A stretch of DNA of 64,000 nucleotides from Hyphomicrobiales bacterium (GTDB lineage Bacteria; Eisenbacteria; RBG-16-71-46; SZUA-252), in contig JBLMXB010000178.1 of the NCBI GenBank assembly GCA_050257555.1, positions 3,247 to 67,246 on the forward strand. Reading direction: 5' to 3'. Below, in pieces: positions 3,798 to 31,447 of this stretch; the stretch's first letter is position 1, and each line of letters opens with the position of its first letter. The notes below the pieces were generated by a model. That model saw nothing but the letters and a program-made list of their open reading frames with translations. It made no database searches and was not told the DNA's origin. A program made the position numbers and the translations under genes.

Positions 3798-6785
3798 GTG
3801 ATGCGATTCGTCGAGACCCCGTCCCGCTCCCGTCGCCGATCCTCCGCGCTTCCGCTCCTCGCCGCGACGATGATCCTCGCGCTCGTGCCGGGCGGCCGCG
3901 CGACCTCCGCCGAACCGCCGGCGCCGCCGGCGCCGCCGGCGCCGCCGGCCGCGGCGTCCCCGAACTCCGTGCTCGGGGACGTGGACGGAATCCCGATCCG
4001 GACCGACGAGTGGGATCGGATCGCGGCGCCCTACTTCCAGGAGGTCGAGGCCAAGGCCGGCCGGAAGCTGAACGACGAGGAGAAGAAGATCCTCCGGCGC
4101 AACCTCCTCGCGGAGCTCATCAAGGAGCGCCTCTGGCTCGCGGACGCGCGCCGGCGCGGCATGAAGGTGGGGGACGACGCGATCGACGCGCGGATGAAGC
4201 AGAGCGCGTTCTTCAAGACCGACGGGAAGCTGGACGAGGCGAAGTTCCTCGCCTTCAAGCGCTCCACGACCTCCAACTACCCCGCGCTCCACGACCAGAT
4301 CGAGTCGGGGCTCCTCCTCGAGGAGTACAACCGCTGGATGGAGCGGCGCTTCGGCCCGCGCGACGCGGAGCTCCGGAAGATCTTCCAGGAGCGGGCCGCC
4401 CTCGCGACGCTTCGCTATCTCCTCGTCGGCCCGGACCTGATCTCGCTCGAGCCGGAGGCGACGCGGGAGCAGATCCTCGACTACTACCAGGCGCATCAGG
4501 CGGAATTCCAGTCGCCCGACTCGGCGCGGATCCAGTACGCGAAGGTGCCGATCGAGACCGCGGAGCAGAGCGACTCGGCGCGCGACGCCGCGGCGCCGGC
4601 CGCGCTCAAGGCGGCCGAGGACATCCTGCAGGCCATCCACTCCGGCGCGCCGGTCGAGACCGCGGCGAAGGTCTACGGCGGGCTCCACGACACGGGCTGG
4701 TTCCGCCTCGGCGAGCCGATGCGCGGGCTGGGACGGTCCGAGGCGCTCACGGAGGCGATCCGGAACACCGCGTCCGGGGCGTGGATCGAGACGCCGGTCC
4801 GGAACGGCCCCTCGTTCGTGGTCGTGCGCGTGATCGAGCGGAAGCCGTCTCGGATCGAGTCGTTCCGCGACGTGGCGGCGCTCGTGAAGCGCCGGGCGGA
4901 CATCGCCGTGCGCGACGCGGTCAACGATTCCCTGGGACGGGCGGAGCTCCGGCTCCATCCCGCGACGTACGCCGTCCCGCGCGTGGCCGCCACGATCGTG
5001 GTCCGCGATCTCGCCGCGTACGCGGCGACGAAGGCGATCTCGCGGAAGGATCTCGACCGGGAGCTCGACCGGCGTCGCAAGGCGGCGGGCGTCGCGAAGG
5101 ACGACCGCGCGTGGCAGGACTCCGTGCGGGCGATCCTCCCGGGGCGGATGCGCGAGGAGCGCCGCGACGCCGCGGCGTTCCGCGCGTTCCGTGACGCGGC
5201 GAAGCGGCTCCGGAAGGACGCGCCCCGGCGCGTCGCCGACCGGGCGCGCGGCCTCGTCGAGTCGTTCGACCTCTACCGCGGGCAGCCGATCGAGGCGCCG
5301 ATGCTGATCGAGGGGGCGTCGCTCGACTCCCTCTACGCGCTCCGCCCGGGCGACGTCTTCGGACCGCGGTTCGCGCGCGACTCCGTCTACGTGGTGCGCG
5401 TGGACCGGCTCGATCCCGCCTTCGTGCCGCCGTACGAGGCCGTTCGGACGGCCGCGCGCTCGAACGCGCTCCTCGCGAAGCGCGACGAGGACGTGACGCG
5501 GGCCCAGCGCTATTTCGCGGAGCACCGCGACGACTACCGGACGAAGCCGAAGTGGATCTTCGACTACGCCCTCTTCCGGAAGGAGGCGGCGGACAGCATC
5601 GCCGTGCCGGACAGCGCGATCGTCGCGTACTACCACGCCCACCCGCTCGAGTTCACCGTCCCCGCGGTGGCGAAGCCGCGCGTGATCCTGATCCGCTACA
5701 AGCCGTCCGATGGGGCCGACGCCCGCGCGAAGGCCCGCCAGCGCGCGCTGGCCGCCCGCGAGCGGATCCGGAACGGCGAGGACTTCGCCGCCGTCGCGCG
5801 CGAGCTCTCCGAGGACCCGGAGAGCGCGGCGAAGGGGGGCGCGATCGGCGACGTCACACGCTCCTCGCTCCTCAAGGAGCTGGCCGACGTGATCTTCACG
5901 ATCCCGATCGGCGAAGTGAGCGATCCGATCGAGGCGCGGAACGCCTTTCACATCGTCCGGGTCGACGAGCGCACGCCGGACCACCTCCGGCCGCTCGCGG
6001 AGTGCAGGGACGAGATCCACGGCGTGATCGGGGGCCCGATCGCCGACTCCCTGGCGTACGCGGCGGCGGTGGGCCTCGCGACGAAAGCGGCCGCGGGCGC
6101 ACCGTTCGACTCGCTGGCGCGGGCCGCCGGGGGCGCCGTTCGGAGCGGGCCGACCGGCCCGAGCGATCCGCTCCCGGGCATCGGCGCGCTCGAGTCGGTC
6201 GCGACGGTGATCGGAAACCTCGCCGACGGCGCGGTCACCCCGGAGCCGATCGCGGTCGAGCCGGGCTACCTCGTGGCGCGGCGGGTCCGCGAGGTCGCGC
6301 CCGAGCCGGCGCCGTTCGAGACGGTCCGGGAGCGGGTCCTCTACGACGAGCAGAACGCACGGCGTCGCGCGATCGCCGACTCGCTGAACCCCCGGATCCG
6401 CGAGGCGCTGGCCCACGGCGCCGACCTCGACTCGATCGCGGTGCCGTACGGCGGCACGCGCGTGACGAAGCCGTTCGGCCGGTACGGGCCGATCCCCGAC
6501 TTCGCGCGCGACCCGACCCTCGCGCGGGATTCCACGTACTTCGACAAGATCTTCGCGTCGCGTCCGGGAGCGCCGCTGCCGCCGCGCACCGGCGCCAGCG
6601 GCACGCTCTACGCGCGGGTCGAGACGCTCCAGATCCCGTCCGCGGCCGAGTTCGCGAAGCAGCGCGACCAGGTCTGGCGGGAGCTGGTCGACCAGCGGGT
6701 CGCGGCCTGGACCGACCGGCTCCGCTCGAGGGCGACCGTCACGATCCGGGACCCGGCGCTCCGCGATCTCGCGCACGGCCTCTAG
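3798..6785 (+). CDS. Large exported peptidyl-prolyl isomerase/foldase (SurA/PpiD-like, several parvulin-like modules)
   Basis: N-terminal signal-like hydrophobic stretch, SurA-N-like helical region, PpiC motif GEDFAAVARELSEDPESAAKGGAIG...GEVSDPIE..AFHIVRV plus degenerate repeats; start GTG 3798 or ATG 3801. Confidence 0.85.
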   Translation: MMRFVETPSRSRRRSSALPLLAATMILALVPGGRATSAEPPAPPAPPAPPAAASPNSVLGDVDGIPIRTDEWDRIAAPYFQEVEAKAGRKLNDEEKKILRRNLLAELIKERLWLADARRRGMKVGDDAIDARMKQSAFFKTDGKLDEAKFLAFKRSTTSNYPALHDQIESGLLLEEYNRWMERRFGPRDAELRKIFQERAALATLRYLLVGPDLISLEPEATREQILDYYQAHQAEFQSPDSARIQYAKVPIETAEQSDSARDAAAPAALKAAEDILQAIHSGAPVETAAKVYGGLHDTGWFRLGEPMRGLGRSEALTEAIRNTASGAWIETPVRNGPSFVVVRVIERKPSRIESFRDVAALVKRRADIAVRDAVNDSLGRAELRLHPATYAVPRVAATIVVRDLAAYAATKAISRKDLDRELDRRRKAAGVAKDDRAWQDSVRAILPGRMREERRDAAAFRAFRDAAKRLRKDAPRRVADRARGLVESFDLYRGQPIEAPMLIEGASLDSLYALRPGDVFGPRFARDSVYVVRVDRLDPAFVPPYEAVRTAARSNALLAKRDEDVTRAQRYFAEHRDDYRTKPKWIFDYALFRKEAADSIAVPDSAIVAYYHAHPLEFTVPAVAKPRVILIRYKPSDGADARAKARQRALAARERIRNGEDFAAVARELSEDPESAAKGGAIGDVTRSSLLKELADVIFTIPIGEVSDPIEARNAFHIVRVDERTPDHLRPLAECRDEIHGVIGGPIADSLAYAAAVGLATKAAAGAPFDSLARAAGGAVRSGPTGPSDPLPGIGALESVATVIGNLADGAVTPEPIAVEPGYLVARRVREVAPEPAPFETVRERVLYDEQNARRRAIADSLNPRIREALAHGADLDSIAVPYGGTRVTKPFGRYGPIPDFARDPTLARDSTYFDKIFASRPGAPLPPRTGASGTLYARVETLQIPSAAEFAKQRDQVWRELVDQRVAAWTDRLRSRATVTIRDPALRDLAHGL
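3915..3950 (+). repeat. Tandem 9-bp CCGCCGGCG repeat encoding a (PPA)n linker
   Basis: About four copies giving PPAPPAPPAPPA after the signal peptide. Confidence 0.7.
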
Positions 6786-6805
6786 CCGCGCGGGCGCGAA
6801 GGGGC

Positions 6806-6834
6806 TTGCCGCGCGGCGCCGGCGCGCCTAGCAT
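6806..6834 (+). promoter_or_regulatory. Sigma70-type promoter for radC
   Basis: TTGCCG-N17-TAGCAT; SD GAGAGGAG before ATG 6895. Confidence 0.55.
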
Positions 6835-6894
6835 CGGGGCTCCTCGCGCGCTCACCACCGCCGCCGCCCCGCTCCGCTCCGAGAGGAGACGACC

Positions 6895-7578
6895 ATGGAG
6901 CGGGAACGCGTACCCTTCGATCACGAATCCGAGCCGGACCGGCGGCCCCGGGAGCGGCTCCTCGACCTCGGGCCGGGCGTCCTCACCGACACGGAGCTCC
7001 TCCTCGTGCTGTTCCGCGCGGAGCGCGGACCGGCCGGTACCTTGGCCGCGCGGGTGACGGCGGCCGTCGATCTGCGGCGCCTCCACCAGACCGCGCTCGA
7101 CGACCTGCTCGCGGTCCGCGGGCTCGGGCGCGCGCGCGCGGCGCAGCTCCTCGCGGCCGCGGAGCTGGGACGCCGCCTCTGGCCCGACGGCGACGCGACG
7201 CCGCTGGTGCGGGGCCCGGAGAACGTCTACGATCTGACGCGCGACATCCGGAGCGCGAACCGCGAGCACTTCGTCGGCTTCTACCTCAACGCGCGGCACC
7301 AGGTCCTGCGGCGGGAGATCATCTCCATCGGCAGCTTGAACGCGAGCATCGTCCATCCGCGGGAGGTCTACCTCCCCGCCGTCGCGCTCTCGGCGGCCAG
7401 CGTGATCCTCGCGCACAACCACCCGAGCGGCGATCCGACGCCGAGCGAGGAGGACCTCGCCATCACGCGCCGCCTCGTCGAGTCGGGCCGGCTCCTCGGC
7501 ATCGAGCTGCTCGACCACGTGGTCGTGGCGCGCGACGCCTACACGAGCTTCAAGGAGCGGAGGCTCCTCCGCGGATGA
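6895..7578 (+). CDS. radC: RadC/JAB-domain protein
   Basis: RPRERL, HhH-like GLGRARA, REHF, GSLNASIVHPREV, AHNHPSGDPTPSEED, LLDHVVV. Confidence 0.95.
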   Translation: MERERVPFDHESEPDRRPRERLLDLGPGVLTDTELLLVLFRAERGPAGTLAARVTAAVDLRRLHQTALDDLLAVRGLGRARAAQLLAAAELGRRLWPDGDATPLVRGPENVYDLTRDIRSANREHFVGFYLNARHQVLRREIISIGSLNASIVHPREVYLPAVALSAASVILAHNHPSGDPTPSEEDLAITRRLVESGRLLGIELLDHVVVARDAYTSFKERRLLRG

Positions 7579-8618
7579 CCGGCCGCGCTCCCGTCCGGCG
7601 ACCCCTCGGCGCCGCGCCGCGCGCGATCGCCACGGCGCTCGCCACGGCGCTCACGCTCGCGCTCGCCGCCGGGCTCGCAGGCTGCGCCGGCTCGCGCCCC
7701 CCCGAGGCGACGCTCGGCGCGGGCGTCGCCGACGATCCCGCGGCGCTCGTCGCGCTCGCCGACTCCGCGACCGCCGCGGGCGACGCGGCCACGGCACGCC
7801 GGGCGCTCGACCGCGCGGTGGCGATCGCGCCGGCCGACCCGCGGGTCCACCTCGGGCGCGGACGGTTCCTGGTCGCGCTCCGGCGCTACCACGACGCCAA
7901 GGCCGAGTTCGATCGGGCCGCCTCGCTCGATCCGACGAGCCCGGAGCCGCCGTACCAGCTCGGGCTCGCGTACGCGCAGGCGGGGGAGACGGGCGACGCG
8001 ATCCGCGCGCTGGGGCGCGCGCTCGCGATCGACCCCCAGCACGCCGGCGCGCGGGCGGCGCTCGCGCCGCTCCTCGAGGCGCGGTACACGGCCGCGGGCG
8101 TGCCCGCGGAGTACGCGCGGATCCCCGAGCAGCCGACCGTCTCCCGCGAAGAGCTCGGCGTGATCCTCGCCGTCGAGCTGGGCGCCGATCCCGACCGCGC
8201 GGTCTGGCGCTCCGACCAGCCCGACCGGACCGACGCGCCGGAACTGGACGGCACGTGGGGCGCGCGCTGGCTTCGCGCGTCGGTCGCCCGCCGCTGGATC
8301 GAGCCCTTTCCGGACGGCTCGTTCCATCTGACCGATCCCGTGACGCGCGGCAACCTGGCGCTCCTCCTGGCCCGGCTGTCGCGCGAGTGGGGCGCCGACA
8401 GCCTCCTCGGCGGGCCGGCGTCGGCGTTCCCGGACCTGCCGCCCCGGAGCTACCTCGAGCGCTCCGCCACGTTCGCCGTGCGGGTCGGGCTCCCGACGCG
8501 CGACGGCGGCCGGTTCGATCCCAGGAGCGCGGTGACCGGCCTCGAAGCGCTCCGGGGCGTCCGCGGCCTCGCCCGGGCCCTCGGCGCGTCGCCGGCGGTG
8601 AACGGGGAACCGAACTGA
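7575..8618 (+). CDS. TPR lipoprotein with C-terminal SLH-like repeats
   Basis: Lipobox LAGC; TPR helices; PFPDGSFHLTDPVTRGNLALLLAR and FPDLP...DGGRFDPRSAVTGLEAL resemble SLH motifs. Confidence 0.7.
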   Translation: MTGRAPVRRPLGAAPRAIATALATALTLALAAGLAGCAGSRPPEATLGAGVADDPAALVALADSATAAGDAATARRALDRAVAIAPADPRVHLGRGRFLVALRRYHDAKAEFDRAASLDPTSPEPPYQLGLAYAQAGETGDAIRALGRALAIDPQHAGARAALAPLLEARYTAAGVPAEYARIPEQPTVSREELGVILAVELGADPDRAVWRSDQPDRTDAPELDGTWGARWLRASVARRWIEPFPDGSFHLTDPVTRGNLALLLARLSREWGADSLLGGPASAFPDLPPRSYLERSATFAVRVGLPTRDGGRFDPRSAVTGLEALRGVRGLARALGASPAVNGEPN

Positions 8619-8626
8619 TCGCGGGG

Positions 8627-8635
8627 TGGTAGACT
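8627..8635 (+). promoter_or_regulatory. Extended -10 promoter, probably leaderless transcript
   Basis: TG-G-TAGACT 6 nt before ATG 8642; no properly spaced SD. Confidence 0.5.
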
Positions 8636-8641
8636 CATAGG

Positions 8642-11422
8642 ATGAACGTGCCCCGGCTCTCCGTGCGCCCCGCCCTCGCGGGGCTCCTGGTTTTCGGCCT
8701 CCTCGGCGGCCCCGCCGCGACCGGCGTCGGCACGGCCTCGCGCGCGCTCGCGGCGGGCCTCCCCGCGCGGAGCACGGGAGACGTCCGGCCCCTCGGGGCC
8801 CAGGACCGCGCGGGCCGGGCCCCGGCCCTCAGCACGGCCGACACCATCACGGTCTTCCACGCCGACCTGGAGACGCTGTCGAGCCCGGGAAACGAAGGGG
8901 GCTGGACCCACGCCGACCAGTCCGGAATCCCGACCGCCTGGCACATCGCGCCCACGGTCGCCTGCCAGGGGAACGCGTTCTGGTGCGGGCTCACCGATTC
9001 GTCCTGGACGGGCGACCCCGACCGAAACGGCTACGCGAACAACTGGCGCCAGACCCTCATGAACTACGTCGACCTCACGAACGCGAACTCGCCCGTCAAG
9101 CTCTCGTTCAAGCAGACCATGAACCTCGAACCCGACTTCGACTACGGCACCGTCGAGGCGCTCGACCTCGTCGAAGGCTGGATCCCGCTCGCCACGTTCA
9201 CCGGGGCCATCCCGTCCGGCTCCGCCGCGTGCGACACGTTCACGGTGCAGATCCCGGACTCGATCATCGCGAAGTCGAGCACGGTCTACTTCCGGTTCGT
9301 GATGACGAGCGACACGCAGGGCTCCTCGGCGGACGGGCTCTACCCGGCGGCCAAGGGGTGGGCGGTCGACAACGTGACGGTGAAGGCCGGCCTGAACGAC
9401 ATCCGCTTCTTCGACGACTTCGAATCGGGACCCGGGACCTGGACCGTCTCCACGTTCCCGGCCGTCGGCGACTTCTGGCACATCGCGTCGGGGAGCTCCA
9501 TCTCGCAGCAGTGCATCACCAATACCTCGAAGGTCTGGACCCCGATCGGGTTCATCAGCGGGTCGCTGGTGCCCCGCATGAACGACGTGCTCGTCACGCC
9601 GACGGTCGCCGTGAGCAACGCGGACCAGGTCTTCTTCTCGTTCGACGTCTTCCGGGTGCTGCCGCTCGGCGCCTGCTACTACTACGGGTTCCAGTTCCGG
9701 ACGAGGAAGGTGGGGCTCCCGTGGTCCTCCTGGATCGACCCGACGGGGCTCCTCTACTTCGGCACCGAGGCGGAGTGGCTCCGGCAGACCGTCCCGCTGA
9801 CCGGCGCGGGCGGCGCGGACTCGCTCCAGGTCCGACTCTCCGTGAAGGACTACGCCGACGTCTTCTGCGACGGGGTTTCCGCGTCGAGCGGGACCGCGGT
9901 CTACTTCGACAACCTCGACGTGCGCGTGCTCGGCCTCGCGGGTCCCTCGCTCGCGACGTCCGAGACGAGCCTGTTCAACGACACGTTCCAGACCACGGCG
10001 TTCTTCGGGAACGACAACTTCAACACGCCGCGCGGCGACAGCACGGTCGTCTCGATCGGCGCGTCGCGCGGGCTCAAGTCGGCCTCGCTCTGGACGAGCC
10101 TGAACGGCGCGGCCTTCGTCTCGAGCCCGCTGACCGCGGTCGGCGCCGGCGCCCCGACCCTCTACTACGGCGACGTGGCGGCCGGGGCCTACCCGCGCGG
10201 GACCGACCTCCGCTACTACTTCAGCGCCACCGATTCCACCGACGCCGTCTCGACCCTCCCGGTCGACGCGCTCACGAACGGCAGTTATTTCCGAGCGACG
10301 ATCCTGCCCGCCGTCTTCACGCCGACCACGCCGTGTCCGACCGACAGCGCCCGCGTCCTCTACGTGAACGCGTACGCGTCGCCCACGGCCACGACCGCCG
10401 TCGACCAGAGCTTCGCCGCGCTCGGCGTCCGGTACGACCGGTACGACGTGAACGGCGCCGCGGCGGGTCTCGGCAATTCGCCGGGCGGCGGCGACCCGAA
10501 CGCGCTCGGCGCGATCTGGCCGGCGACGAGCGCCACGGCGCTCTCGGGGTACTCCGTGATCGTCTGGGATGTCGGCGACCGGTCGGCGTTCACGCTGAGC
10601 GCGCAGGACCAGACGCTCCTCCAGAGCTGGCTCGCGCTCGGCGGGCGGAATCGCGGTCTCCTCCTCGCGGGGGACAACCTCGCGTACGACCTGGTGGTGA
10701 ACGGCGCCGGCCTCGCGAACTTCCTGAACTGCACGATCGGGACGACGTACCTGCGCGACATCTGGGAGACGTCGCCGCAGGACAGCCTCACCCCGACGCT
10801 GACCGGCGCGGCCGGCACGAGGATCGCCTCCGAGCCGTTCGGGCTCGACGGCGACTGTCCGGGGCTCAACCGCTTCGACGGGCTCGCGGTCGCTCCGTGC
10901 GTCGGCGCGCAGGGGCGGAGCTGGCTCCTGTACCCGAACGGGGTCCTCGCGGCGACCGAGCGGACCGCGCCTTTGGGCACGGGCACCGACAGCGCCCGCG
11001 TGATCCCGCTCGGGTTCTCGCTCGCCACCATGACGAACACGGTCCGGAGGAACCTCTTCCTCTGGCGCACGGTCGTCGAGGAGATGAAGACCCCGTACTG
11101 CACGACCCCGACCGGGATCGAGGTCTCGCCGGCGGCGGTCCCGGCGGTGCCGCGCCTCGATCCGGCGATGCCGAACCCGTTCAACCCCGAGACCGTGATC
11201 GGCTTCTCGCTGCCTCGGGCGGCCCGCGCGACGCTCCGCGTCTACGACGTGCACGGCCGGCTCGTCCGCACGTTGGCGGACGGCGTGTTCGGTCCCGGCG
11301 ACCACCGGGTCCGCTGGGACGGCACGGACGGGGCCGGCCGGGCGGTCGGGAGCGGGGCCTATTTCGCCCGGCTGACGGCGGACGGGCGGAGCGAGGCGCG
11401 GAAGGTCGTCCTCTTGCGCTGA
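8642..11422 (+). CDS. Large secreted Cys-containing beta-rich protein with C-terminal FlgD-Ig/T9SS-like sorting domain
   Basis: Signal peptide; MAM/jelly-roll-like segments (FFDDFESG..W, W.VDNV); C-terminus PNPFNPET..F.LP...LRVYDVHGRLVRTL...WDGTD..G..V.SG.YF.RL. Confidence 0.8.
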   Translation: MNVPRLSVRPALAGLLVFGLLGGPAATGVGTASRALAAGLPARSTGDVRPLGAQDRAGRAPALSTADTITVFHADLETLSSPGNEGGWTHADQSGIPTAWHIAPTVACQGNAFWCGLTDSSWTGDPDRNGYANNWRQTLMNYVDLTNANSPVKLSFKQTMNLEPDFDYGTVEALDLVEGWIPLATFTGAIPSGSAACDTFTVQIPDSIIAKSSTVYFRFVMTSDTQGSSADGLYPAAKGWAVDNVTVKAGLNDIRFFDDFESGPGTWTVSTFPAVGDFWHIASGSSISQQCITNTSKVWTPIGFISGSLVPRMNDVLVTPTVAVSNADQVFFSFDVFRVLPLGACYYYGFQFRTRKVGLPWSSWIDPTGLLYFGTEAEWLRQTVPLTGAGGADSLQVRLSVKDYADVFCDGVSASSGTAVYFDNLDVRVLGLAGPSLATSETSLFNDTFQTTAFFGNDNFNTPRGDSTVVSIGASRGLKSASLWTSLNGAAFVSSPLTAVGAGAPTLYYGDVAAGAYPRGTDLRYYFSATDSTDAVSTLPVDALTNGSYFRATILPAVFTPTTPCPTDSARVLYVNAYASPTATTAVDQSFAALGVRYDRYDVNGAAAGLGNSPGGGDPNALGAIWPATSATALSGYSVIVWDVGDRSAFTLSAQDQTLLQSWLALGGRNRGLLLAGDNLAYDLVVNGAGLANFLNCTIGTTYLRDIWETSPQDSLTPTLTGAAGTRIASEPFGLDGDCPGLNRFDGLAVAPCVGAQGRSWLLYPNGVLAATERTAPLGTGTDSARVIPLGFSLATMTNTVRRNLFLWRTVVEEMKTPYCTTPTGIEVSPAAVPAVPRLDPAMPNPFNPETVIGFSLPRAARATLRVYDVHGRLVRTLADGVFGPGDHRVRWDGTDGAGRAVGSGAYFARLTADGRSEARKVVLLR

Positions 11423-17228: not shown

Positions 17229-18343
17229 GGATCGTCGCCTTCAACTGGCGGGACCCGCGGCATCCCGAGGCCGGGGGGGCCGAGCTCCAGCTCTTCGAGA
17301 TCCTCCGACGCGCGGTCCGGGACGGCGACGAAGCCCTCTGGCTGGCCGAGCGCTTCCCCGGGGCCCCCGAAACGGACCTGATCGAGGGCATCCGGGTTCA
17401 TCGGGGGGGAACGTGGTACAATGCGCACCTTTCGCTGGGCTCCCTCTATCGCCGCGTGTACCGGAAGGAGCGGTTCGATCTGGTCCTCGACAACATCAAC
17501 AAGGTCCCCTTCTTCACGCCGCTCTACGCCGGGGCGCCGGTGCTGGCGATGGTCCCGCACCTCTTCGGAGGGACGGTCTTCCGGGAGGCCTCGCTGCCGG
17601 TCGGGCTCCTCGTCCGGGCGCACGAGCTGATGATCCCCGCCGTCTACCGCCGCACGCCGTTCCTGACGATCTCCGACAGCACGCGCGACGATCTGGTCCG
17701 CCGCGGCATCGCACGCGAGCGGATCGCGGTCGTCCGCTGCGGCCTCACGCAGGAGGACTACGGCGTCTCGGTCCCGCCGGAGCGGCGGGACGCGCCGCGC
17801 GTCGTCTTCCTCGGGCGGCTCCGGAAGTACAAGGGGGCCCAGCACGCGATCCGGGCTCTGCCGCACGTGCGCGCGACGGTGCCGGACGCGGTGCTCGACG
17901 TCGTGGGCGACGGGCCGTACCGGCCGGAGCTCGAGCGGCTCGCGCGCGCGCTCGGCGTGGCCGACGCGGTCCGCTTCCGGGGCGCCCTGCCGCACGCCGG
18001 GAAGGTCGCCGCGCTGAACGAGGCGCAGGTCGCCGTCTGCCCCTCGCCGAAGGAAGGGTGGGGGCTCACGGTGATCGAGGCGAACGCGTGCGGCGTGCCG
18101 GTCGTCGCGAGCCGGAGCCCCGGGCTGGTCGAGTCCGTCCGGGACGGCGAGACCGGATTCCTCGTGCCGCACGGCGACGCGCGCGCGCTCGCCGACGGCG
18201 TGGTCCGGCTCCTCACCGATCGCGATCTCCGCCTCCGCCAGGCGGCCGCCGCGCGGGCGTGGGCCGCGCGATTCGACTGGGAGACCTGCTACCGCGAGAG
18301 CCGCGCCGTCATGGCGCGGGCGGCGGCGGGACGCGCGGCGTGA
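17225..18343 (+). CDS. Glycosyltransferase family 4
   Basis: WRDPRHPEAGGAE, FLGRLRKYKG, PSPKEGWGLTVIEANACG; GTG overlaps the upstream stop. Confidence 0.92.
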   Translation: MRIVAFNWRDPRHPEAGGAELQLFEILRRAVRDGDEALWLAERFPGAPETDLIEGIRVHRGGTWYNAHLSLGSLYRRVYRKERFDLVLDNINKVPFFTPLYAGAPVLAMVPHLFGGTVFREASLPVGLLVRAHELMIPAVYRRTPFLTISDSTRDDLVRRGIARERIAVVRCGLTQEDYGVSVPPERRDAPRVVFLGRLRKYKGAQHAIRALPHVRATVPDAVLDVVGDGPYRPELERLARALGVADAVRFRGALPHAGKVAALNEAQVAVCPSPKEGWGLTVIEANACGVPVVASRSPGLVESVRDGETGFLVPHGDARALADGVVRLLTDRDLRLRQAAAARAWAARFDWETCYRESRAVMARAAAGRAA

Positions 18344-19431
18344 CCGTCGACGAGAGCCGCGACCTGATCGGCGCGATCGCGGAGGACGCGGGCGCCGGGC
18401 AGGCCGGATCGTTCTTCCGGCGGCACAAGGTCCTCCTGATCGCGCTCAAGATCCTCCTCTCCCTGGCCCTCTTCACGTTCGTCGTGGCCAAGGTCTCGCC
18501 CGGGAACGTCTGGGCGACGGCGCGCCCGGCCGACCCCGCCCTCCTCGGCGCGGCGGCGTCCCTCTTCCTCCTGTCGAGCCTCGTCGGGAGCTGGCTCTGG
18601 GGGACGCTCCTCCGCGCGCAGGGGGTCGCGATCCCGTACCGGAAGGCGGCCTCGTACTACTTCGTCGGGCTCTTCTTCAACAACTTCCTGCCGTCGAACA
18701 TCGGCGGCGACATCGCGCGCATCTCCGACGCGCGGAAGCACGCCGACCGCGTCACGTCGGTCTTCTCCGCGACGCTGATGGACCGGATGATCGGCGTCCT
18801 CGCGATCGGCTTCGTGGCCGTGATCGCCTCGTTCGCCGCGCTCGACCGCTTCCGCCTCTACGCGATCTACACCGCCGTGTTCCTCGTCTTCGCGTTCAGC
18901 GTCGGCGTCTTCCTCGCGATCTTCCACCGCGGCGTGCTCATGGCCGTCGAGTGGCCGTTCCGGGCCGTCGGGGCGCGGGCGGTCGCCGCCTCGATCGGGC
19001 GGCTGATGGACGACCTCCACGGCTTCCGGAGCCACGCGGGCGCGCTCGCGATCGCGTTCCTGGCGTCGACCGTGGTGCAGATCAGCCGGATCTACGTCCA
19101 CTACCTGGTCGGCCTCGCGCTCGGGGTGCGGATCGCCGTCGGCTATTATTTCCTGTTCGTGCCGGTCCTGGCGGCGCTCGTCTCGCTCCCGATCTCGATG
19201 AACGGCCTCGGCGTGCGCGAGGGGGCGGCCGTGGTGCTCTTCCAGATGGCGGGGCTCACCCGCGAGCAGTCGTTCACCATTCCGTTCCTGACGTACCTGG
19301 TGTCGGTCTTCATCAGCCTGCTGGGCGGCCTGATCTTCGTCAGCCGGCCGCCGCGGCGCGCGATCGCGCGGCACTTCGAGCGGCGACGCGCGGCGCGGGC
19401 GGCGGACCCCGGCGGGGAGAGGAGAACGTGA
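18340..19431 (+). CDS. Lysylphosphatidylglycerol synthase TM-domain (UPF0104) flippase-like membrane protein
   Basis: Multiple TM helices; YFVGLFFNNFLPSNIGGD.AR, DR..G, LPISMNGLGVREG. Confidence 0.85.
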   Translation: MTVDESRDLIGAIAEDAGAGQAGSFFRRHKVLLIALKILLSLALFTFVVAKVSPGNVWATARPADPALLGAAASLFLLSSLVGSWLWGTLLRAQGVAIPYRKAASYYFVGLFFNNFLPSNIGGDIARISDARKHADRVTSVFSATLMDRMIGVLAIGFVAVIASFAALDRFRLYAIYTAVFLVFAFSVGVFLAIFHRGVLMAVEWPFRAVGARAVAASIGRLMDDLHGFRSHAGALAIAFLASTVVQISRIYVHYLVGLALGVRIAVGYYFLFVPVLAALVSLPISMNGLGVREGAAVVLFQMAGLTREQSFTIPFLTYLVSVFISLLGGLIFVSRPPRRAIARHFERRRAARAADPGGERRT

Positions 19432-22001
19432 GCTCGAACAAGCGTTGGCACGCGCTCTTCGCGGCGCTGGCCGTCGGCGTCCCCCTGCTGGTCTACATCC
19501 GGACGCTCACCGTGACGGTGCCCTTCTGGGACTCGGGGGAGTTCATCGCGACGTCCTACATCCTCGGCCTGCCGCACCCGCCCGGGAACCCCGTCTACAC
19601 CATGCTCGGACGGATGCTGTGCCTCCTGCCGTTCGAGACGGTGGCGTGGCGCGTGAACTTCATGAGCGCGGCGGCGTCGGCCCTGACGGCGCTCTTCACG
19701 TTCCTCGTGACGGCGCGCGCGCTCCGCCGGACGTTCGAGGGCGGGCCGCGGACCGTCGCGCAGTGGACGGCGTGCGAGCTGGGCGGCCTCGTGGCGGCCT
19801 ACTTCATCGCGTTCGCCTCGTCGTTCTGGGACAGCGCGATCGAGGCGGAGGTCTACTCCCTCTCGTCCTTCCTGATCATCTTCACGATCTGGCTGGCCTT
19901 CAACTGGTGGGACCGGATCGGCAAGGCGGGGAACGACCTCCTCCTGGTCCTGATCGCCTACCTCCTCGCCGTGTCCATCGGCGTCCACCTCGGGACGATC
20001 CTCGTCTTCCCCGGACTGATCGTCCTCCTCGCGATCCTGCGGCCGGCGATCTTCACGAACGCCCGCTTCTGGATCTCGACGATCGTCCTCGGGATCTTCC
20101 TCGGCCTGGTGATCTTCAACGAGGTCAAGGACTGGAACATCCCGAACGGCGTCTTCATGCTGCTCCTCGCGGCCATCGTCCTCTACTACGGCCTGAACCG
20201 CGAGCGGCTCGTGAAGAACAACCTCGCGACCTGGTGGGTGCTGGCGATCGTCGTCGGCTTCTCGGTGCAGTTCTTCCTGCTCGTCCGGAGCCAGCAGATG
20301 CCCGACATCAACGAGGGGATGCCGGCGACGCTCGAGGCGTGGAAGGACTACCTGCTCCGCAAGCAGTACGGCCCGTCGAACCCGTTCGTGCGCCGCGCCG
20401 ACGTCTGGTACCAGATCGAGCACATGTACCTGCGGTACGTCTGGCAGCAGTTCCAGCTCGTCGGCCGGATCGGGCCGTTCGGCGAGGAGTCGCTCCTCGT
20501 CCGGCTCGTGAACCTGATCCCGTACGGCCTCTTCTTCACCGGGGCGTGGTGGAACTGGAAGCGGGACAAGAAGACGTTCTGGTTCTTCTTCAGCCAGCAC
20601 GTGATCATGGGCCCGGCGCTGATCTTCTACCTCAACTTCACCGACCACGAGGTGCGGGAGCGCGACTACTTCTTCACGAACTCCTACCACTTCATCGCGA
20701 TCTGGATGGGGATGGGCGCCGCCGCGGCGCTCCAATGGGTGATGCAGGCGTTCGCGCCCGACCCGCCGCCGCTCAAGGCGCCCCCGGCGCCCGACGCGCC
20801 GCCCCCGCTCCTGCCGCTGCCGACGCAGGGGGCCGCCCGCGCGGGGTTCGGCGTGGGGCTGGTCGCGCTGGTCGGTCTCTCGCTCCTCCCGATGAAGAAC
20901 GGCTGGTACACGCACGACCGCCACAACTTCTGGATCGCGCACGACTACGCGTACAACATGCTCGTGCCGCTCGAGAAGAACGCGATCGTCTTCACGAACG
21001 GCGACAACGACACGTTCCCGCTCTGGTACATCCAGGAGGTCGAGGGGGTCCGGAAGGACGTCCGCGTCGTGAACCTGAGCCTCCTGAACACGCCGTGGTA
21101 CATCCGGCAGCTCCGCGACCAGGCTCCCCGGGTGCCGATCTCGTACACGAACGCCCAGATCGACGCGCTCGAGCCCTACCTCGACGACAAGACGAACAAG
21201 GTCGTCTGGGTGAAGGACATGGCGACGGCCGACATCATGAAGACGAACGCGTGGCGGAAGCCGATCTACCTGGCGGTCACCGTCCCCGAGCAGATGGGCC
21301 TCGAGAAGCAGCTCTCGCTCGAGGGGCTCGTCTTCCGCGTCTACCCGCACCAGGCGCCGCACGGGGTGGACGTGGCCAAGACGATCGACAATCTGTACCA
21401 CGTCTTCAAGTACCGGGGGCTCCTCGACAAGACGCGGTCGTACGACACGTCGGTCTACAAGGACGACAACGCGTACCGGCTGGTCCAGAACTACTCGGCC
21501 GCGCACGTGCAGATCGCGTACCAGCTCCAGCAGCAGGGGCGGCCCGACGAGGCGATCCGCTACCTGCAGGACGCCGTGAAGATCTCGCCCGACTTCCCGG
21601 GGCTCCTCGAGTACCTGGGGCGCATGTACGAGGACGCGGGGCGGGAAGAGGACGCCCGCAAGGTGTACGAGGACGGGATGCGGCGCTTCCCGAACGCGGC
21701 CGAGTTCCACTACCACGTCGGCGTCCTCGACGTGCAGGACGGGAAGGTCGAGGAGGGGATCGCGGAGCTGCGGCGCGCGTGCGCGCTCAACCAGCAGTAC
21801 TTCGACTGGTTCAGCGCGCTCTTCTCGACGCTCTGGCACACCGGGCGGAGGACCGAGGCGGTCGAGGTGCTCCGGACCTGGGTCCGCGCGCATCCCGACG
21901 ACGCGGAGGGGGCGCAGTTCCTCCATGAGTTCGAGGACTCGCTCCGGATCCTCTCCGGCACCGCGCCGGAGGTTCCCGGACGCGCGCGGGGAGGCCGGTA
22001 G
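19428..22001 (+). CDS. DUF2723/TMEM260-like GT-C membrane protein with C-terminal TPRs
   Basis: FWDSGEFIA..Y.LGLPHPPGNP.Y, AIEAEVY, VRERDYFF, FTNGDNDTFPLWYIQEVEGVRKDVRVVNLSLLNTPWY; many TMs; TPR helices. Confidence 0.85.
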   Translation: MSSNKRWHALFAALAVGVPLLVYIRTLTVTVPFWDSGEFIATSYILGLPHPPGNPVYTMLGRMLCLLPFETVAWRVNFMSAAASALTALFTFLVTARALRRTFEGGPRTVAQWTACELGGLVAAYFIAFASSFWDSAIEAEVYSLSSFLIIFTIWLAFNWWDRIGKAGNDLLLVLIAYLLAVSIGVHLGTILVFPGLIVLLAILRPAIFTNARFWISTIVLGIFLGLVIFNEVKDWNIPNGVFMLLLAAIVLYYGLNRERLVKNNLATWWVLAIVVGFSVQFFLLVRSQQMPDINEGMPATLEAWKDYLLRKQYGPSNPFVRRADVWYQIEHMYLRYVWQQFQLVGRIGPFGEESLLVRLVNLIPYGLFFTGAWWNWKRDKKTFWFFFSQHVIMGPALIFYLNFTDHEVRERDYFFTNSYHFIAIWMGMGAAAALQWVMQAFAPDPPPLKAPPAPDAPPPLLPLPTQGAARAGFGVGLVALVGLSLLPMKNGWYTHDRHNFWIAHDYAYNMLVPLEKNAIVFTNGDNDTFPLWYIQEVEGVRKDVRVVNLSLLNTPWYIRQLRDQAPRVPISYTNAQIDALEPYLDDKTNKVVWVKDMATADIMKTNAWRKPIYLAVTVPEQMGLEKQLSLEGLVFRVYPHQAPHGVDVAKTIDNLYHVFKYRGLLDKTRSYDTSVYKDDNAYRLVQNYSAAHVQIAYQLQQQGRPDEAIRYLQDAVKISPDFPGLLEYLGRMYEDAGREEDARKVYEDGMRRFPNAAEFHYHVGVLDVQDGKVEEGIAELRRACALNQQYFDWFSALFSTLWHTGRRTEAVEVLRTWVRAHPDDAEGAQFLHEFEDSLRILSGTAPEVPGRARGGR

Positions 22002-22005: not shown

Positions 22006-22947
22006 GTGCACGTCCTCGTCACCGGGGCCGCCGGGTTCATCGGGTCGACGCTCTGCGACGGCCTCCTCGCCGACGGCGCCGACGTGACCGGCGTCGACGC
22101 GTTCGTCCCGAACTACCCGGAGTCGTTCAAGCGGGCGAACCTGGCGTCGCTCGAGAAACACCCCCGGTTCCGGTTCCGGACCGACGACCTCCGGACGGCG
22201 CCGCTCGCGCCGCTCCTCGACGGCGTGACGCACGTGGTCCACCTGGCCGCGCTCCCGGGCGTCCGCCTCTCCTGGGGCGAGGCGTTCCGCGACTACGCCG
22301 GGCACAACGTGATCGCGACGCAGCGGCTCCTGGACGCGCTCCGCGACCGTCCGATCGAGCGCGTCGCCGTGGCGTCGAGCAGCTCGATCTACGGCATGCC
22401 GACCCGCTTCCCGACGCCGGAGGACGAGCCGCCGCGGCCGCTCTCGCCGTACGGCGTGACGAAGGTCGCGACCGAGGCGCTCCTCCAGGCGTACCGGGCC
22501 TCGTTCGGGATCCCGGCGGTCGGGCTCCGGTACTTCACGGTCTACGGTCCGCGCCAGCGGCCGGACATGGGGATCCACAAGTTCTTCGAGGCGGCGCGCC
22601 GGGGGACGCCCGTCACCGTCTACGGCGACGGGCTCCAGACCCGCGACTTCACGTTCGTGGCGGACGCCGTGCGCGCGACGCGGACCGCGCTCGAGCGCCG
22701 CACGGAGCCGCTCGTGTACAATGTCGGCGGCGGCCATCGCATCGCGCTGAACGACCTCCTCGACGCGATCGGGCGGATCGCGGACCGCCCGCTCACGCGC
22801 CGGATGGAGCCCGCCCAGGCGGGCGACCCGCGCGACACGTCGGCCGACACGACGCTCGCGCGCCGCGACCTCGCGTACGCTCCGGCGACCGACCTGACCG
22901 AAGGGCTGCGGAGGCAGTGGGAATGGCAACGGAAGCTCGCGACGTGA
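22006..22947 (+). CDS. NAD-dependent nucleotide-sugar epimerase/dehydratase
   Basis: VTGAAGFIGS, HLAA.PGVR, ASSSSIYG, SPYGVTK, LRYFTVYGPRQRPDM (UDP-glucuronate 4-epimerase-like). Confidence 0.92.
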   Translation: MHVLVTGAAGFIGSTLCDGLLADGADVTGVDAFVPNYPESFKRANLASLEKHPRFRFRTDDLRTAPLAPLLDGVTHVVHLAALPGVRLSWGEAFRDYAGHNVIATQRLLDALRDRPIERVAVASSSSIYGMPTRFPTPEDEPPRPLSPYGVTKVATEALLQAYRASFGIPAVGLRYFTVYGPRQRPDMGIHKFFEAARRGTPVTVYGDGLQTRDFTFVADAVRATRTALERRTEPLVYNVGGGHRIALNDLLDAIGRIADRPLTRRMEPAQAGDPRDTSADTTLARRDLAYAPATDLTEGLRRQWEWQRKLAT

Positions 22948-27101: not shown

Positions 27102-27108
27102 GGCCGGG

Positions 27109-27137
27109 ACCGTACGGGAGCGGGCGGGACGGGTCAA
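27109..27137 (-). promoter_or_regulatory. Sigma70-type promoter, leaderless GT4 transcript
   Basis: TTGACC-N17-TACGGT, 7 nt before GTG 27101. Confidence 0.55.
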
Positions 27138-27158
27138 CGTCCCGGCGCATCCCGCGCC

Positions 27159-27188: not shown

Positions 27189-27216
27189 CACCGAGTGCGC
27201 GATCGCGGAGGCAACC

Positions 27217-30734: not shown

Positions 30735-31447
30735 ACAAGGTCCTCGTCATCATCCCGACGTACAACGAGCGGGATAACCTGGAGCGGCTCCTCGAGCGGA
30801 TCCACGCGCTCGGCCTCGGGCTCGAGGTGCTGATCGTCGACGACAACTCGCCCGACGGAACGGGCGCCCTGGCCGACCAGATCGCCGCCCACGATCCCGC
30901 CGTGCACGTGATGCACCGGGAGGGGAAGCTCGGGCTCGGCTCGGCGTACGTGGCCGGCTTCCGCTACGCGCTCGACCGCGACTACGACGTCGTCTTCGAG
31001 ATGGACGCCGACTTCTCCCACAGCCCCGAGAGCCTCCCCGACTTCCTGCGGGAGATCGAGGGCGCCGACCTGGTGCTCGGCTCGCGGTACCTCCACGGCG
31101 TCACGGTCGTGAACTGGCCGCTGACCCGCCTGATCCTCTCGTACGCGGCGAACGTCTACAGCCGCGTCATCACCGGGATGCGGGTGAAGGACCTGACGGG
31201 CGGCTTCAAGTGCTTCCGCCGGGCCGTGCTCCAGGCGATCGACTGGAGCCGCGTGAAGTCCGACGGCTACGGGTTCCAGATCGAGATCAACTTCAAGGCG
31301 TGGCGGAAGGGGTTCCGCATCCGGGAGATCCCGATCCTCTTCGTCGACCGGCGGGCGGGCGAGTCGAAGATGTCGCGCCGGATCATCTGGGAAGCGGCCT
31401 GGATGGTCTGGAGGCTCCGCATCCTCGACCTGCTCGGCGCGCTCTAG
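30731..31447 (+). CDS. Polyprenol monophosphomannose synthase (DPM1/Ppm1-like GT2)
   Basis: IIPTYNERDN, VDDNSPDGTG, KLGLGSAY, EMDADFSH, GSRY, DLTGGFKCFR, SDGYGFQIE, R.AGESKM. Confidence 0.9.
   Translation: MNKVLVIIPTYNERDNLERLLERIHALGLGLEVLIVDDNSPDGTGALADQIAAHDPAVHVMHREGKLGLGSAYVAGFRYALDRDYDVVFEMDADFSHSPESLPDFLREIEGADLVLGSRYLHGVTVVNWPLTRLILSYAANVYSRVITGMRVKDLTGGFKCFRRAVLQAIDWSRVKSDGYGFQIEINFKAWRKGFRIREIPILFVDRRAGESKMSRRIIWEAAWMVWRLRILDLLGAL

What the first reader, a model, noticed from the sequence alone, without database searches (positions are those of the whole stretch)
3798..11422. Exported proteins are loaded with the Bacteroidota O-glycosylation sequon D-(S/T)-(A/I/L/V/M/T)
Seen (hand counts): in the 995-aa foldase all 13 Asp-Ser dipeptides are followed by A/L/V/I/T (DSA x3, DSL x5, DSV x2, DSI x2, DST). 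The secreted 926-aa CTD protein has 8 such sites, the YfhO-like protein 5, the PorZ-like protein 4 and the TPR lipoprotein 2. I found no DS/DT dipeptide at all in cytoplasmic RecG (691 aa), FtsA (408 aa) or the NtrC regulator (481 aa). Counter-examples: FtsZ has 2 sites and FtsI has none of the strict form. Established: D-(S/T)-(A/I/L/V/M/T) is the acceptor sequon of general protein O-glycosylation in Bacteroidota. Inference: this probably non-Bacteroidota lineage runs an equivalent general O-glycosylation system and its periplasmic foldase is a heavily glycosylated substrate.
Basis: partly seen in the sequence, partly recalled or inferred. Interest (0 to 1): 0.88.

Follow-up and report, generated by a model that had tools for sequence, protein, structure and literature searches.

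The report
Ser-type O-glycosylation sequon outside Bacteroidota
Exported proteins of this uncultured high-GC bacterium from the candidate phylum Eisenbacteria carry about twice as many Asp-Ser-(Leu/Thr/Ala/Val) tripeptides as chance predicts, the signature of the general protein O-glycosylation known from Bacteroidota, which suggests that this system also exists outside that phylum.

Summary
The pattern holds genome-wide. In 337 strictly predicted signal-peptide proteins and lipoproteins, DS[AILVMT] occurs 381 times against about 215 expected. In 803 strict cytoplasmic proteins it occurs 209 times against 263. The exported/cytoplasmic ratio is 2.29, 95% CI 1.86-2.79.

The 995-aa foldase ranks first of 2,600 proteins (13 sites vs 1.4 expected). 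In an unbiased scan of 5,088 tripeptides, ADS, DSL, DST and DSA are the four most export-specific.

With the same pipeline, a SusD-rich Bacteroidia genome gives 3.2x enrichment. Three non-FCB genomes pooled give 0.78.

DT sequons, DSI and DSM are not enriched, so the motif here is D-S-(L/T/A/V).

The nearest named genome, in the same GTDB genus, is labelled Candidatus Eisenbacteria. None of 31 genomes sampled from this phylum has a SusD hit.

The window also encodes two lipid-carrier-type glycosylation modules. One is a YfhO-like GT-C enzyme next to a GT2. The other is a TMEM260-like GT-C enzyme with TPR repeats, next to a flippase-like protein, an epimerase and a GT2.

Glycosylation itself is inferred, not shown. 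My verdict is a probable new member of a known kind of system, of moderate to high interest.

The parts
3798..6785 (+). 995-aa periplasmic or membrane-anchored PpiD/SurA-like foldase (SurA_N + PPIC rotamase) with 13 D-S-[ALVIT] sites. It is the most sequon-enriched protein of the genome.
   Evidence: Pfam. NCBIfam PpiD-like at 111 bits, below the cut-off. Counts. Rank 1 of 2,600. 10 of 13 sites are kept in at least 9 of 10 same-genus orthologues.
7575..8618 (+). 347-aa TPR lipoprotein (lipobox) with 2 sequons (DSA63, DSL275).
8642..11422 (+). 926-aa signal-peptide protein with a C-terminal FlgD_ig-like domain. It has 8 sequons, 6 of them DS in the full protein. The genome-wide table lists DS 7 vs 2.0 for the trimmed mature form.
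   Evidence: rank 32 of 2,600.
18340..19431 (+). Flippase-like membrane protein (LPG_synthase_TM / TIGR00374). Candidate flippase for a polyprenyl-phosphate sugar.
   Evidence: Pfam 130.6 bits. NCBIfam 61.5 bits against cut-off 43.2.
19428..22001 (+). 857-aa TMEM260-like GT-C glycosyltransferase with C-terminal TPR repeats. Candidate protein O-glycosyltransferase.
   Evidence: PF11028 156.8 bits against cut-off 24.2, plus TPR. The N-terminus matches human TMEM260 (PDB 9rql) at E 1.1e-16. One of 5 paralogues in the genome.
22006..22947 (+). NAD-dependent sugar epimerase/dehydratase.
   Evidence: Pfam Epimerase 184 bits.
22944..23891 (+). 315-aa GT2 of the ArnC/GtrB/PgfS type. Candidate polyprenyl-phosphate glycosyltransferase.
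   Evidence: Pfam. NCBIfam ArnC-like at 158.8 bits and PgfS-like at 135 bits, both below cut-off.
28362..30734 (+). 790-aa YfhO-like GT-C membrane glycosyltransferase. It is homologous along its whole length to the YfhO of a Bacteroidia genome. Candidate O-glycosyltransferase.
   Evidence: PF09586 36.3 bits against cut-off 28.5. blastp residues 8-785 vs 53-886 of the G053 ORF, 25% identity, E 1e-50. Asp36 invariant. The AF2 model matches GT-C enzymes (ArnT, EmbB, STT3, AftD, PglB, Pmt). Found in 30 of 31 class relatives.
30731..31447 (+). 238-aa GT2, start overlapping the YfhO stop. Dolichyl/polyprenyl-phosphate hexose transferase-like.
   Evidence: Pfam GT2 112.7 bits. NCBIfam best hits are dolichyl-phosphate hexose transferase and AglJ, below cut-off.
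33398..35626 (+). 742-aa exported beta-propeller protein with a weak PorZ-like C-terminus. It has 4 sequons, 3 of them inside the propeller repeat motif.
   Evidence: PorZ 48 bits against cut-off 260.

Best explanation
Exported proteins of this Eisenbacteria-lineage bacterium are under selection to carry the tripeptide D-S-(L/T/A/V). [quoted passage not shown]

Proposed mechanism. Steps 1 to 3 are inferred from gene content and family knowledge. Only the sequon statistics are shown.
1. A GT2 enzyme loads a sugar onto polyprenyl phosphate at the cytoplasmic face. Candidates are the GT2 genes at 22944-23891 and 30731-31447.
2. A flippase-like protein (18340-19431) brings the lipid-linked sugar to the periplasmic face.
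3. A GT-C enzyme transfers it to the Ser of D-S-x in Sec-exported proteins. Candidates are the YfhO-like protein (28362-30734) and the TMEM260-like protein with TPR repeats (19428-22001).
4. The other glycosyltransferases of the 17-38 kb cluster may extend the glycan.

The 995-aa PpiD/SurA-like foldase, with 13 sites, would be the most heavily modified substrate.
For: Shown:
(1) Strict classes over the whole genome. DS[AILVMT] O/E is 1.56 in 277 signal-peptide proteins (287/183.5, z 8.6), 2.96 in 60 lipoproteins (94/31.8, z 10.2) and 0.79 in 803 cytoplasmic proteins (209/262.9).
(2) Local 12- and 30-residue block shuffles give the same result (1.77-1.80 vs 0.80). The bootstrap ratio is 2.29 (1.86-2.79). 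Leaving out the window's contig does not change it.
(3) Internal controls are flat. The reverse motif [AILVMT]SD gives 1.06 and 0.85. ES, ET, NS and NT contrasts are not significant.
(4) In an unbiased scan of 5,088 tripeptides, ADS, DSL, DST and DSA rank 1-4 and DSV ranks 10 for the export-versus-cytoplasm contrast.
(5) Of the 25 proteins with the greatest DS excess, 0 are classed cytoplasmic, although that class is 47% of all proteins.
(6) An independent set of 333 membrane proteins shows periplasmic-side loops at 87/58 = 1.51 (z 5.7) and cytoplasmic-side loops at 48/46 = 1.04.
(7) Same pipeline on 400 kb of other genomes. Bacteroidia G053 exported proteins give 114/36 = 3.16. Sorangium, Bdellovibrio and Acidobacteriota pooled (99 exported proteins) give 69/89 = 0.78.
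(8) The +1 preference after DS has the same order as in the Bacteroidia control. Here it is T 3.0, L 1.9, A 1.4, V 1.2. In Bacteroidia it is T 3.1, L 2.9, A 2.0, I 1.8, V 1.3. In the negatives T, L, A and V all lie at 0.5-0.8.
(9) Foldase sites are conserved while the +1 residue varies among L/V/I/A/T in 9 congeners. A 29%-identical homologue keeps 12 sequons, but only 6 sit at aligned positions.
(10) Candidate machinery is present in the window.

From papers:
- The Bacteroidota sequon marks non-cytoplasmic proteins, and its transferase is still unknown (review PMC12871550, parts 1-2 read).
- YfhO is predicted in silico to be that transferase (bioRxiv 10.64898/2026.07.27.740950, passages only).
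- A periplasmic prolyl isomerase and a TPR protein are O-glycosylated in P. gingivalis (PMC8729774, one passage).
Against: - No glycan is observed. Everything rests on proteome statistics made with a home-made gene caller and a heuristic signal-peptide rule. 1,408 'other' and 119 5'-partial genes were set aside. The 'other' class gives DS 701/624 = 1.12.
- DT sequons are not enriched (OR 1.08), unlike in the Bacteroidia control, where DT gives 48/17 = 2.77.
- The enrichment is weaker than in Bacteroidia: 1.35 here for D[ST] combined, against 3.16.
- Only 67.5% of exported proteins have at least one sequon, against 62.5% in shuffles.
- YfhO-like and TMEM260-like genes also occur in genomes without enrichment. 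These are class relative G023 (exported 29/41 = 0.71) and a Kapabacteria genome (71/68 = 1.04). The candidate enzymes therefore do not predict the signal.
- In the moderate-confidence foldase model (pLDDT 66.6), 5 to 7 of 13 sites lie at helix N-termini.
- Two negative controls had few exported proteins (18 and 16).
Confidence: 0.65

Rival explanations
1. D-S-(hydrophobic) is a structural motif, for example helix N-capping or a strand start, favoured in the folds of exported proteins. No modification is involved.
For: In the AF2 model of the foldase the Asp of sites 259, 605, 771, 878 and 911 lies at or next to a helix N-terminus, and 441 and 599 lie near one. Three PorZ-like sites belong to a propeller repeat motif. 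D36 of YfhO is a conserved, probably catalytic residue.
Against: A structural preference should also appear in cytoplasmic proteins (O/E 0.79) and in exported proteins of other bacteria. It does not. The pooled negatives give DS 36/48 = 0.75, with T, L, A and V after DS all below 1. Four foldase sites are mid-helix and two are at strand starts. Sites move while their number is kept in a 29%-identical homologue.
Confidence: 0.1
2. D-S-x marks exported proteins for a periplasmic event other than glycosylation. This could be a different covalent modification of Ser, or recognition by a protease or chaperone.
For: The statistics show only an export-specific, Asp- and Ser-specific tripeptide. The absence of a Thr signal differs from the published Bacteroidota motif (review PMC12871550).
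Against: The +1 preference order matches that of a Bacteroidia genome measured the same way. The genome is rich in lipid-carrier-type glycosyltransferases: 1 YfhO, 5 TMEM260-like and about 9 PMT_2. From recall, I know of no other sequon-directed Ser modification of this form.
Confidence: 0.15
3. The enrichment is an artefact of gene calling, signal-peptide heuristics or MAG contamination.
For: The gene caller is home-made and missed at least one gene, the minus-strand ORF 25956-27461. The lenient classifier mislabels some cytoplasmic enzymes as exported. The MAG has 6.75% estimated contamination.
Against: Misclassification dilutes a contrast and does not create one. The class-blind ranking gives 0 cytoplasmic proteins in the top 25. 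Contig GC is homogeneous, 0.66-0.74. Foldase orthologues in 9 other genomes keep the sites. The controls behave as expected.
Confidence: 0.05

Closest known systems
General protein O-glycosylation of Bacteroidota, with sequon D-(S/T)-(A/I/L/V/M/T) (review PMC12871550)
   Same: An export-specific excess of Asp-Ser-hydrophobic. Lipoproteins are the most loaded class. The +1 preference has the same order as in a Bacteroidia genome analysed identically (T, L, A, then I/V). Periplasmic foldase and TPR proteins are substrates, as in P. gingivalis (PMC8729774, one passage). A YfhO homologue is present.
   Different: A different phylum (Eisenbacteria/Eiseniibacteriota). There is no Thr signal. DSI and DSM are not enriched. 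The enrichment is weaker (1.8x for DS against 3.5x). No metG-wzx 'LFG'-type locus was looked for beyond two Wzx hits on other contigs. The glycan is unknown.
CsbB/GtrB-type GT2 with a YfhO GT-C enzyme in Firmicutes, which glycosylates teichoic acids from a C55-P-sugar (recalled, not checked here)
   Same: The gene pair of a YfhO-family GT-C and an adjacent small GT2. The predicted GT-C fold. An invariant Asp in the first external loop.
   Different: The Pfam YfhO model matches only the C-terminal 50 residues here (36 bits), as it does in the Bacteroidia homologue (40.6 bits). The acceptor cannot be assumed to be teichoic acid here. A protein acceptor is proposed but not shown.
Eukaryotic TMEM260 / TMTC / PMT protein O-mannosyltransferases (PMC10214176, abstract only; PDB 9rql)
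   Same: The 857-aa protein has the TMEM260-like GT-C domain (156.8 bits) followed by TPR repeats. Next to it lie a flippase-like protein, an epimerase and a polyprenyl-P-type GT2.
   Different: It is bacterial and has 5 paralogues in the genome. The donor sugar and the acceptor are unknown. The family is also present in genomes without sequon excess.
PglL/PglO-type O-oligosaccharyltransferase systems of Neisseria, Acinetobacter and Burkholderia (as described in PMC12871550)
   Same: General periplasmic O-glycosylation from a lipid-linked donor. The genome has 3 Wzy_C-family (WaaL/PglL-like) hits.
   Different: According to the review, those systems have no strict three-residue sequon. The signal here is a sharp D-S-x motif.

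Membership tests
Bacteroidota-type general O-glycosylation | Sequon D-(S/T)-(A/I/L/V/M/T) in excess in non-cytoplasmic proteins | tested here: met
   Met for DS: 381 vs about 215 in exported proteins, 209 vs 263 in cytoplasmic proteins, OR 2.15, p 1.1e-9. Not met for DT: OR 1.08, p 0.56.
Bacteroidota-type general O-glycosylation | Thr accepted as well as Ser | tested here: not met
   DT[AILVMT] O/E is 0.91 in signal-peptide proteins and 1.26 in lipoproteins. DTT ranks 288 and DTL 994 of 5,088 tripeptides. The Bacteroidia control gives DT 2.77.
Bacteroidota-type general O-glycosylation | A glycan covalently bound to the sequon Ser/Thr | not testable with these tools
   Needs glycoproteomics.
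Bacteroidota-type general O-glycosylation | The organism belongs to phylum Bacteroidota | tested here: not met
   FtsZ is 78% identical to a MAG titled Candidatus Eisenbacteria that lies in the same GTDB genus. NCBI lists the phylum Candidatus Eiseniibacteriota. SusD is found in 0 of 31 genomes sampled from this phylum, against 9 of 15 in the phylum sample holding the control.
Bacteroidota-type general O-glycosylation | An LFG-type locus (metG, wzx, glycosyltransferases) | not tested
   Only two Wzx-family hits were located, on contigs C62 and C86 and not in the window. Their neighbourhoods were not examined.
YfhO family (PF09586), GT-C fold | Pfam score over the cut-off, a multi-span GT-C fold, and a conserved Asp in the first external loop | tested here: met
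   36.3 bits against cut-off 28.5, C-terminal part only. The best 12 Foldseek PDB matches (E <= 0.001) are GT-C enzymes, with low TM-scores of 0.25-0.41 and model pLDDT 66. D36 is invariant in 8 of 8 homologues. A profile search against PDB sequences found nothing relevant.
TMEM260-like protein O-mannosyltransferase family (PF11028) | The Pfam domain plus luminal/periplasmic TPR repeats | tested here: met
   156.8 bits against cut-off 24.2, and TPR_14 and other TPR models. Human TMEM260 (9rql) matches at E 1.1e-16 over residues 12-158. Activity and acceptor were not tested.
PpiD/SurA-type periplasmic foldase | SurA N-terminal domain plus a PPIC rotamase domain, and export | tested here: met
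   SurA_N_2 48.9 bits, Rotamase_2 144.3 bits. The N-terminus has Arg-rich then hydrophobic stretches. The NCBIfam PpiD equivalog scores only 111 bits against cut-off 493, so this is not an equivalog.

The most novel reading that the evidence does not exclude
Sequon-directed general O-glycosylation is not confined to Bacteroidota. A Ser-only version, D-S-(L/T/A/V), operates in the candidate phylum Eisenbacteria. Its long-sought transferase is one of the two GT-C modules encoded in this window: YfhO-like with GT2, or TMEM260-like with TPR, flippase-like protein, epimerase and GT2. Sequon-rich and sequon-poor relatives exist within one class (G000 and G025 against G023). Phylogenetic profiling across them could identify the enzyme that has been missing since the system was described in 2009.
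Probability: 0.35. Interest if true: 0.8.

Novelty: new member of a known kind. Interest (0 to 1): 0.6.

Why it matters
The Bacteroidota O-glycosylation system modifies about half of the non-cytoplasmic proteins. Its transferase, core flippase and ligase were still unidentified in the 2025 review I read (PMC12871550). [quoted passage not shown]

A second, distant, uncultured lineage with the same proteome signature would have three uses:
- It dates or spreads the system beyond one phylum.
- It offers a natural variant with Ser-only specificity.
- It gives comparative genomics a handle on the missing enzyme, because relatives with and without the signal both exist.

It also bears on annotation. 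Sequon density could be used to flag glycosylating lineages among MAGs.

Tried and rejected
- A MAG titled 'Muribaculaceae' (G031) was meant to be the positive control. Its genome and 12 order-mates are 0.8-1.3 Mb, and only 4 of 13 had YfhO. I dropped it and chose G053 by its 19 SusD hits.
- Kapabacteria (G032) turned out to have no enrichment among signal-peptide proteins (56/61). It serves as a test case, not a positive control.
- Co-occurrence of the candidate enzymes with the signal does not discriminate. YfhO-like and TMEM260-like genes are also in G023 and Kapabacteria, which are not enriched.
- The topology test is underpowered in the control genomes and gave one odd value, Bdellovibrio periplasmic loops 12 vs 4.7. 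I use only the G000 result, with caution.
- The YfhO profile against PDB sequences gave only a chance hit at E 0.38.
- The AF2 foldase model is moderate (pLDDT 66.6, pTM 0.35) and the tool gives no solvent exposure. 'Surface loops' could not be tested.
Only 3 of the 10 were fetched and analysed.
- Earlier notes of this scan held nothing on this topic.
- Literature searches found no paper on Eisenbacteria glycosylation (81 papers, 15 listed). None turned up on bacterial DUF2723/PF11028. Among the 12 listed of 1,816, none covers the motif in other FCB phyla.
- I could not see figure 2A or the supplements of the review, nor Table S1 of the YfhO preprint. They may already show this phylum.
Full report
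**What was checked**

The window lies on the largest contig of a 3.09-Mb, 179-contig, 71.3% GC assembly. Every number is right.
- The 995-aa ORF 3798-6785 has 14 D[ST]x. All 13 DSx are followed by A, L, V, I or T.
- The 926-aa protein has 8 sequons of 12 D[ST]x. The YfhO-like protein has 5 of 6, the PorZ-like protein 4 of 5 and the TPR lipoprotein 2 of 2.
- RecG, FtsA and the NtrC-type regulator have no DS or DT. FtsZ has two DTL. FtsI has four D[ST]x, none of them a sequon.

**Is it more than chance?**

No gene finder or SignalP is installed, so I wrote two tools of my own.
- A codon-usage gene caller gave 2,667 genes at 92.6% coding density.
- Two heuristic localisation rules followed. The lenient rule over-calls signal peptides.
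- The strict rule gave 277 signal-peptide proteins, 60 lipoproteins and 803 cytoplasmic proteins. It sets aside 1,408 'other' and 119 5'-partial genes.

Against within-protein shuffles, the strict classes give these results for DS[AILVMT]:

| Class | Observed / expected | O/E | z |
|---|---|---|---|
| Signal-peptide proteins | 287 / 183.5 | 1.56 | 8.6 |
| Lipoproteins | 94 / 31.8 | 2.96 | 10.2 |
| Cytoplasmic proteins | 209 / 262.9 | 0.79 | |
| 'Other' | 701 / 624 | 1.12 | |

The lenient classes agree: 1.46, 2.56 and 0.75.

Controls on the same proteins are flat.
- The reverse motif [AILVMT]SD gives 1.06 and 0.85 in exported proteins.
- ES[AILVMT] gives 1.02 and 1.26.
- D[ST] followed by any other residue is depleted to about 0.6-0.7 in every class.

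Further checks give the same picture.
- Shuffling only within 12- or 30-residue blocks removes local composition effects. It gives 1.77-1.80 for exported and 0.80 for cytoplasmic proteins.
- The bootstrap ratio is 2.29 (95% CI 1.86-2.79). Leaving out the window's contig changes nothing.
- Sites are spread evenly along mature proteins.
- Ranking all 2,600 proteins of 80 aa or more by DS excess, without using the classes, puts the window's foldase first (13 vs 1.4, P 4.9e-9).
- That ranking finds no cytoplasmic protein among the top 25, although the cytoplasmic class is 47% of the list.
- In 333 membrane proteins not used above, oriented by the positive-inside rule, periplasmic-side loops give 87/58 (1.51, z 5.7) and cytoplasmic-side loops 48/46.
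- A scan of all 5,088 sufficiently frequent tripeptides ranks ADS, DSL, DST and DSA first to fourth for the export-versus-cytoplasm contrast. DSV ranks tenth and PDS eleventh.

**What the motif is**

The signal is Asp-Ser, not Asp-Thr.
- For hydrophobic versus other +1 residues, exported versus cytoplasmic, DS gives OR 2.15 (p 1.1e-9). DT gives OR 1.08 (p 0.56). ES, ET, NS and NT are not significant.
- After DS in exported proteins the enriched residues are T (3.0x), L (1.9x), A (1.4x) and V (1.2x). I (1.0x) and M (0.8x) are not enriched.
- Asp is the only enriched residue before S-[AILVMT] (2.47x; the next highest is 1.29x).

The working sequon is therefore D-S-(L/T/A/V), perhaps with A, P or L before it.

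**Controls in other genomes**

I ran the same pipeline on 400 kb of each control genome.
I chose it because it has 19 SusD hits. SusD rings only in Bacteroides thetaiotaomicron among the 14 control genomes.
- G053 gives exported D[ST][AILVMT] 114/36 = 3.16 (z 13.9). DS gives 3.52 and DT 2.77. Its cytoplasmic proteins give 1.54.
- Negatives: Sorangium 11/18 (18 exported proteins), Bdellovibrio 44/51 (65 proteins), an Acidobacteriota MAG 14/20 (16 proteins).
- Pooled negatives: 69/89 = 0.78, and DS 36/48 = 0.75, over 99 proteins.
- The +1 order after DS in G053 is T 3.1, L 2.9, A 2.0, I 1.8, V 1.3, the same order as here. In the pooled negatives T, L, A and V lie at 0.5-0.8.

Two class-level relatives of the window's genome differ from each other.
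- G025 (70% GC) resembles G000: DS 43/28 = 1.56, lipoproteins 12/4.
- G023 is not enriched: 29/41.
- A Kapabacteria chromosome is also not enriched: 71/68.

**Conservation**

- In nine same-genus orthologues of the foldase (57-74% identity), 10 of the 13 sites are sequons in at least 9 of 10 sequences. The +1 residue swaps among L, V, I, A and T.
- A family-level homologue (53% identity) has 12 sequons.
- A class-level homologue at 29% identity also has 12 (10 of them DS), but only 6 sit at aligned positions.
- A third homologue has 7.

The number of sites is kept while their positions drift. This is what selection on a modification sequon would produce, and not what a fixed structural role would produce.

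The AF2 model of the foldase is moderate (pLDDT 66.6). It places 5 to 7 sites at helix N-termini, four mid-helix and two at strand starts. Helix capping can explain some sites, but it cannot explain the contrast between compartments.

**Lineage**

- The FtsZ of the window is 78% identical to a MAG titled Candidatus Eisenbacteria. That MAG shows the same contig and coordinates as G007, a same-genus genome.
- NCBI lists the phylum as Candidatus Eiseniibacteriota.
- SusD is found in 0 of 31 genomes sampled from this GTDB phylum, against 9 of 15 in the phylum sample that holds the control.
- That Eisenbacteria sit near the FCB group is my recollection. I did not test it.

**Surroundings**

Downstream of the finding, window 17-38 kb is a glycosylation cluster. 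Two modules stand out.

Module A:
- a flippase-like protein (18340-19431);
- an 857-aa TMEM260-like GT-C enzyme with TPR repeats (19428-22001), scoring 156.8 bits, with human TMEM260 structure 9rql at E 1.1e-16;
- an epimerase (22006-22947);
- an ArnC/GtrB/PgfS-like GT2 (22944-23891).

Module B:
- a 790-aa YfhO-like protein (28362-30734);
- an overlapping 238-aa GT2 that resembles dolichyl/polyprenyl-phosphate hexose transferases (30731-31447).

Evidence on the YfhO-like protein:
- It aligns end to end with the YfhO ORF of the Bacteroidia control (25% identity, E 1e-50).
- It shows the same C-terminal-only Pfam match as that ORF.
- Its Asp36 in the first loop is invariant.
- Its model matches only GT-C enzymes at the top of the PDB search (ArnT, EmbB, STT3, AftD, AftA, AglB, PglB, DPY19, Pmt). 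TM-scores are low, 0.25-0.41.
- It is present in 30 of 31 class relatives.

A July 2026 preprint predicts, in silico, that YfhO is the missing Bacteroidota transferase (10.64898/2026.07.27.740950, passages only). The 2025 review lists the transferase, the core flippase and the ligase as undiscovered (PMC12871550, parts 1-2 read).

Neither candidate tracks the signal in my small sample. Both families are also in G023 and in the Kapabacteria genome. The genome has many further GT-C genes: 5 PF11028, about 9 PMT_2 and 3 Wzy_C.

**Verdict**

- Supported: an export-specific, Asp-Ser-specific sequon with a Bacteroidia-like +1 preference exists in a non-Bacteroidota lineage, and plausible machinery lies beside it.
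- Not supported: the Thr half of the motif, and the I and M positions.
- Open: glycosylation itself, which is inference.

I put 0.65 on Bacteroidota-type O-glycosylation restricted to Ser. I put 0.15 on another Ser-directed periplasmic event, 0.10 on a purely structural motif and 0.05 on artefact.

On novelty, the review's pan-bacterial figure may already show this phylum. I could not see figures or supplements. Its text names no phylum other than Bacteroidota, and my searches found nothing on Eisenbacteria glycosylation.

Noticed in passing
window 25956-27461 (-): A minus-strand ORF with a GT4-type C-terminal motif lies inside the otherwise plus-strand glycosyltransferase cluster. My gene caller missed it. 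No family search was run on it.
   Followed up: no
G000 contigs C178, C135, C133, C21, C22 (PF11028) and 9-10 places for PF13231: A 3.1-Mb genome carries 5 TMEM260-like and about 9 PMT_2 (ArnT-like) GT-C genes, plus 1 YfhO and 3 Wzy_C. That is an unusually large set of lipid-carrier glycosyltransferases.
   Followed up: partly
G000 contig C62, about 19-31 kb: A Wzx hit (19206-20036), two Wzy_C hits (22560-23042 and 30164-30574) and a PMT_2 hit (28335-28787) lie together. This could be an O-antigen-like or 'outer glycan plus ligase' locus. The neighbourhood was not examined.
   Followed up: no
All genomes analysed: D[ST] followed by a non-hydrophobic residue is depleted (O/E about 0.6-0.9) in most classes and genomes, whatever the compartment. 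Exceptions lie near or above 1.0, for example Bdellovibrio exported proteins at 1.01. This looks like a general dipeptide bias unrelated to the sequon.
   Followed up: no
Kapabacteria chromosome G032:C1:1000001-1400000: A genome that GTDB groups with SusD-bearing Bacteroidia shows no sequon excess in 44 signal-peptide proteins (56/61). It shows hints in 9 lipoproteins (15/8) and in periplasmic loops (28/16). It has YfhO and TMEM260-like genes.
   Followed up: partly
Family-level relatives, e.g. G008:C78, G001:C32, G012:C31, G010:C18: The foldase and the YfhO gene keep the same spacing of about 24.5 kb on one contig in several genomes of the family. The whole foldase-to-glycosylation-cluster arrangement is therefore syntenic.
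   Followed up: partly
window 33398-35626: The 'PorZ-like' label rests on 48 bits against a cut-off of 260, over the C-terminal 200 residues only. The rest is a Reg_prop-type propeller whose repeat consensus itself contains G-D-x-[VL]-W.
   Followed up: partly
G031 and its order: A MAG titled 'uncultured Muribaculaceae' sits in a GTDB order of 0.8-1.3 Mb genomes. This does not fit the title, so the public label may be wrong.
   Followed up: no
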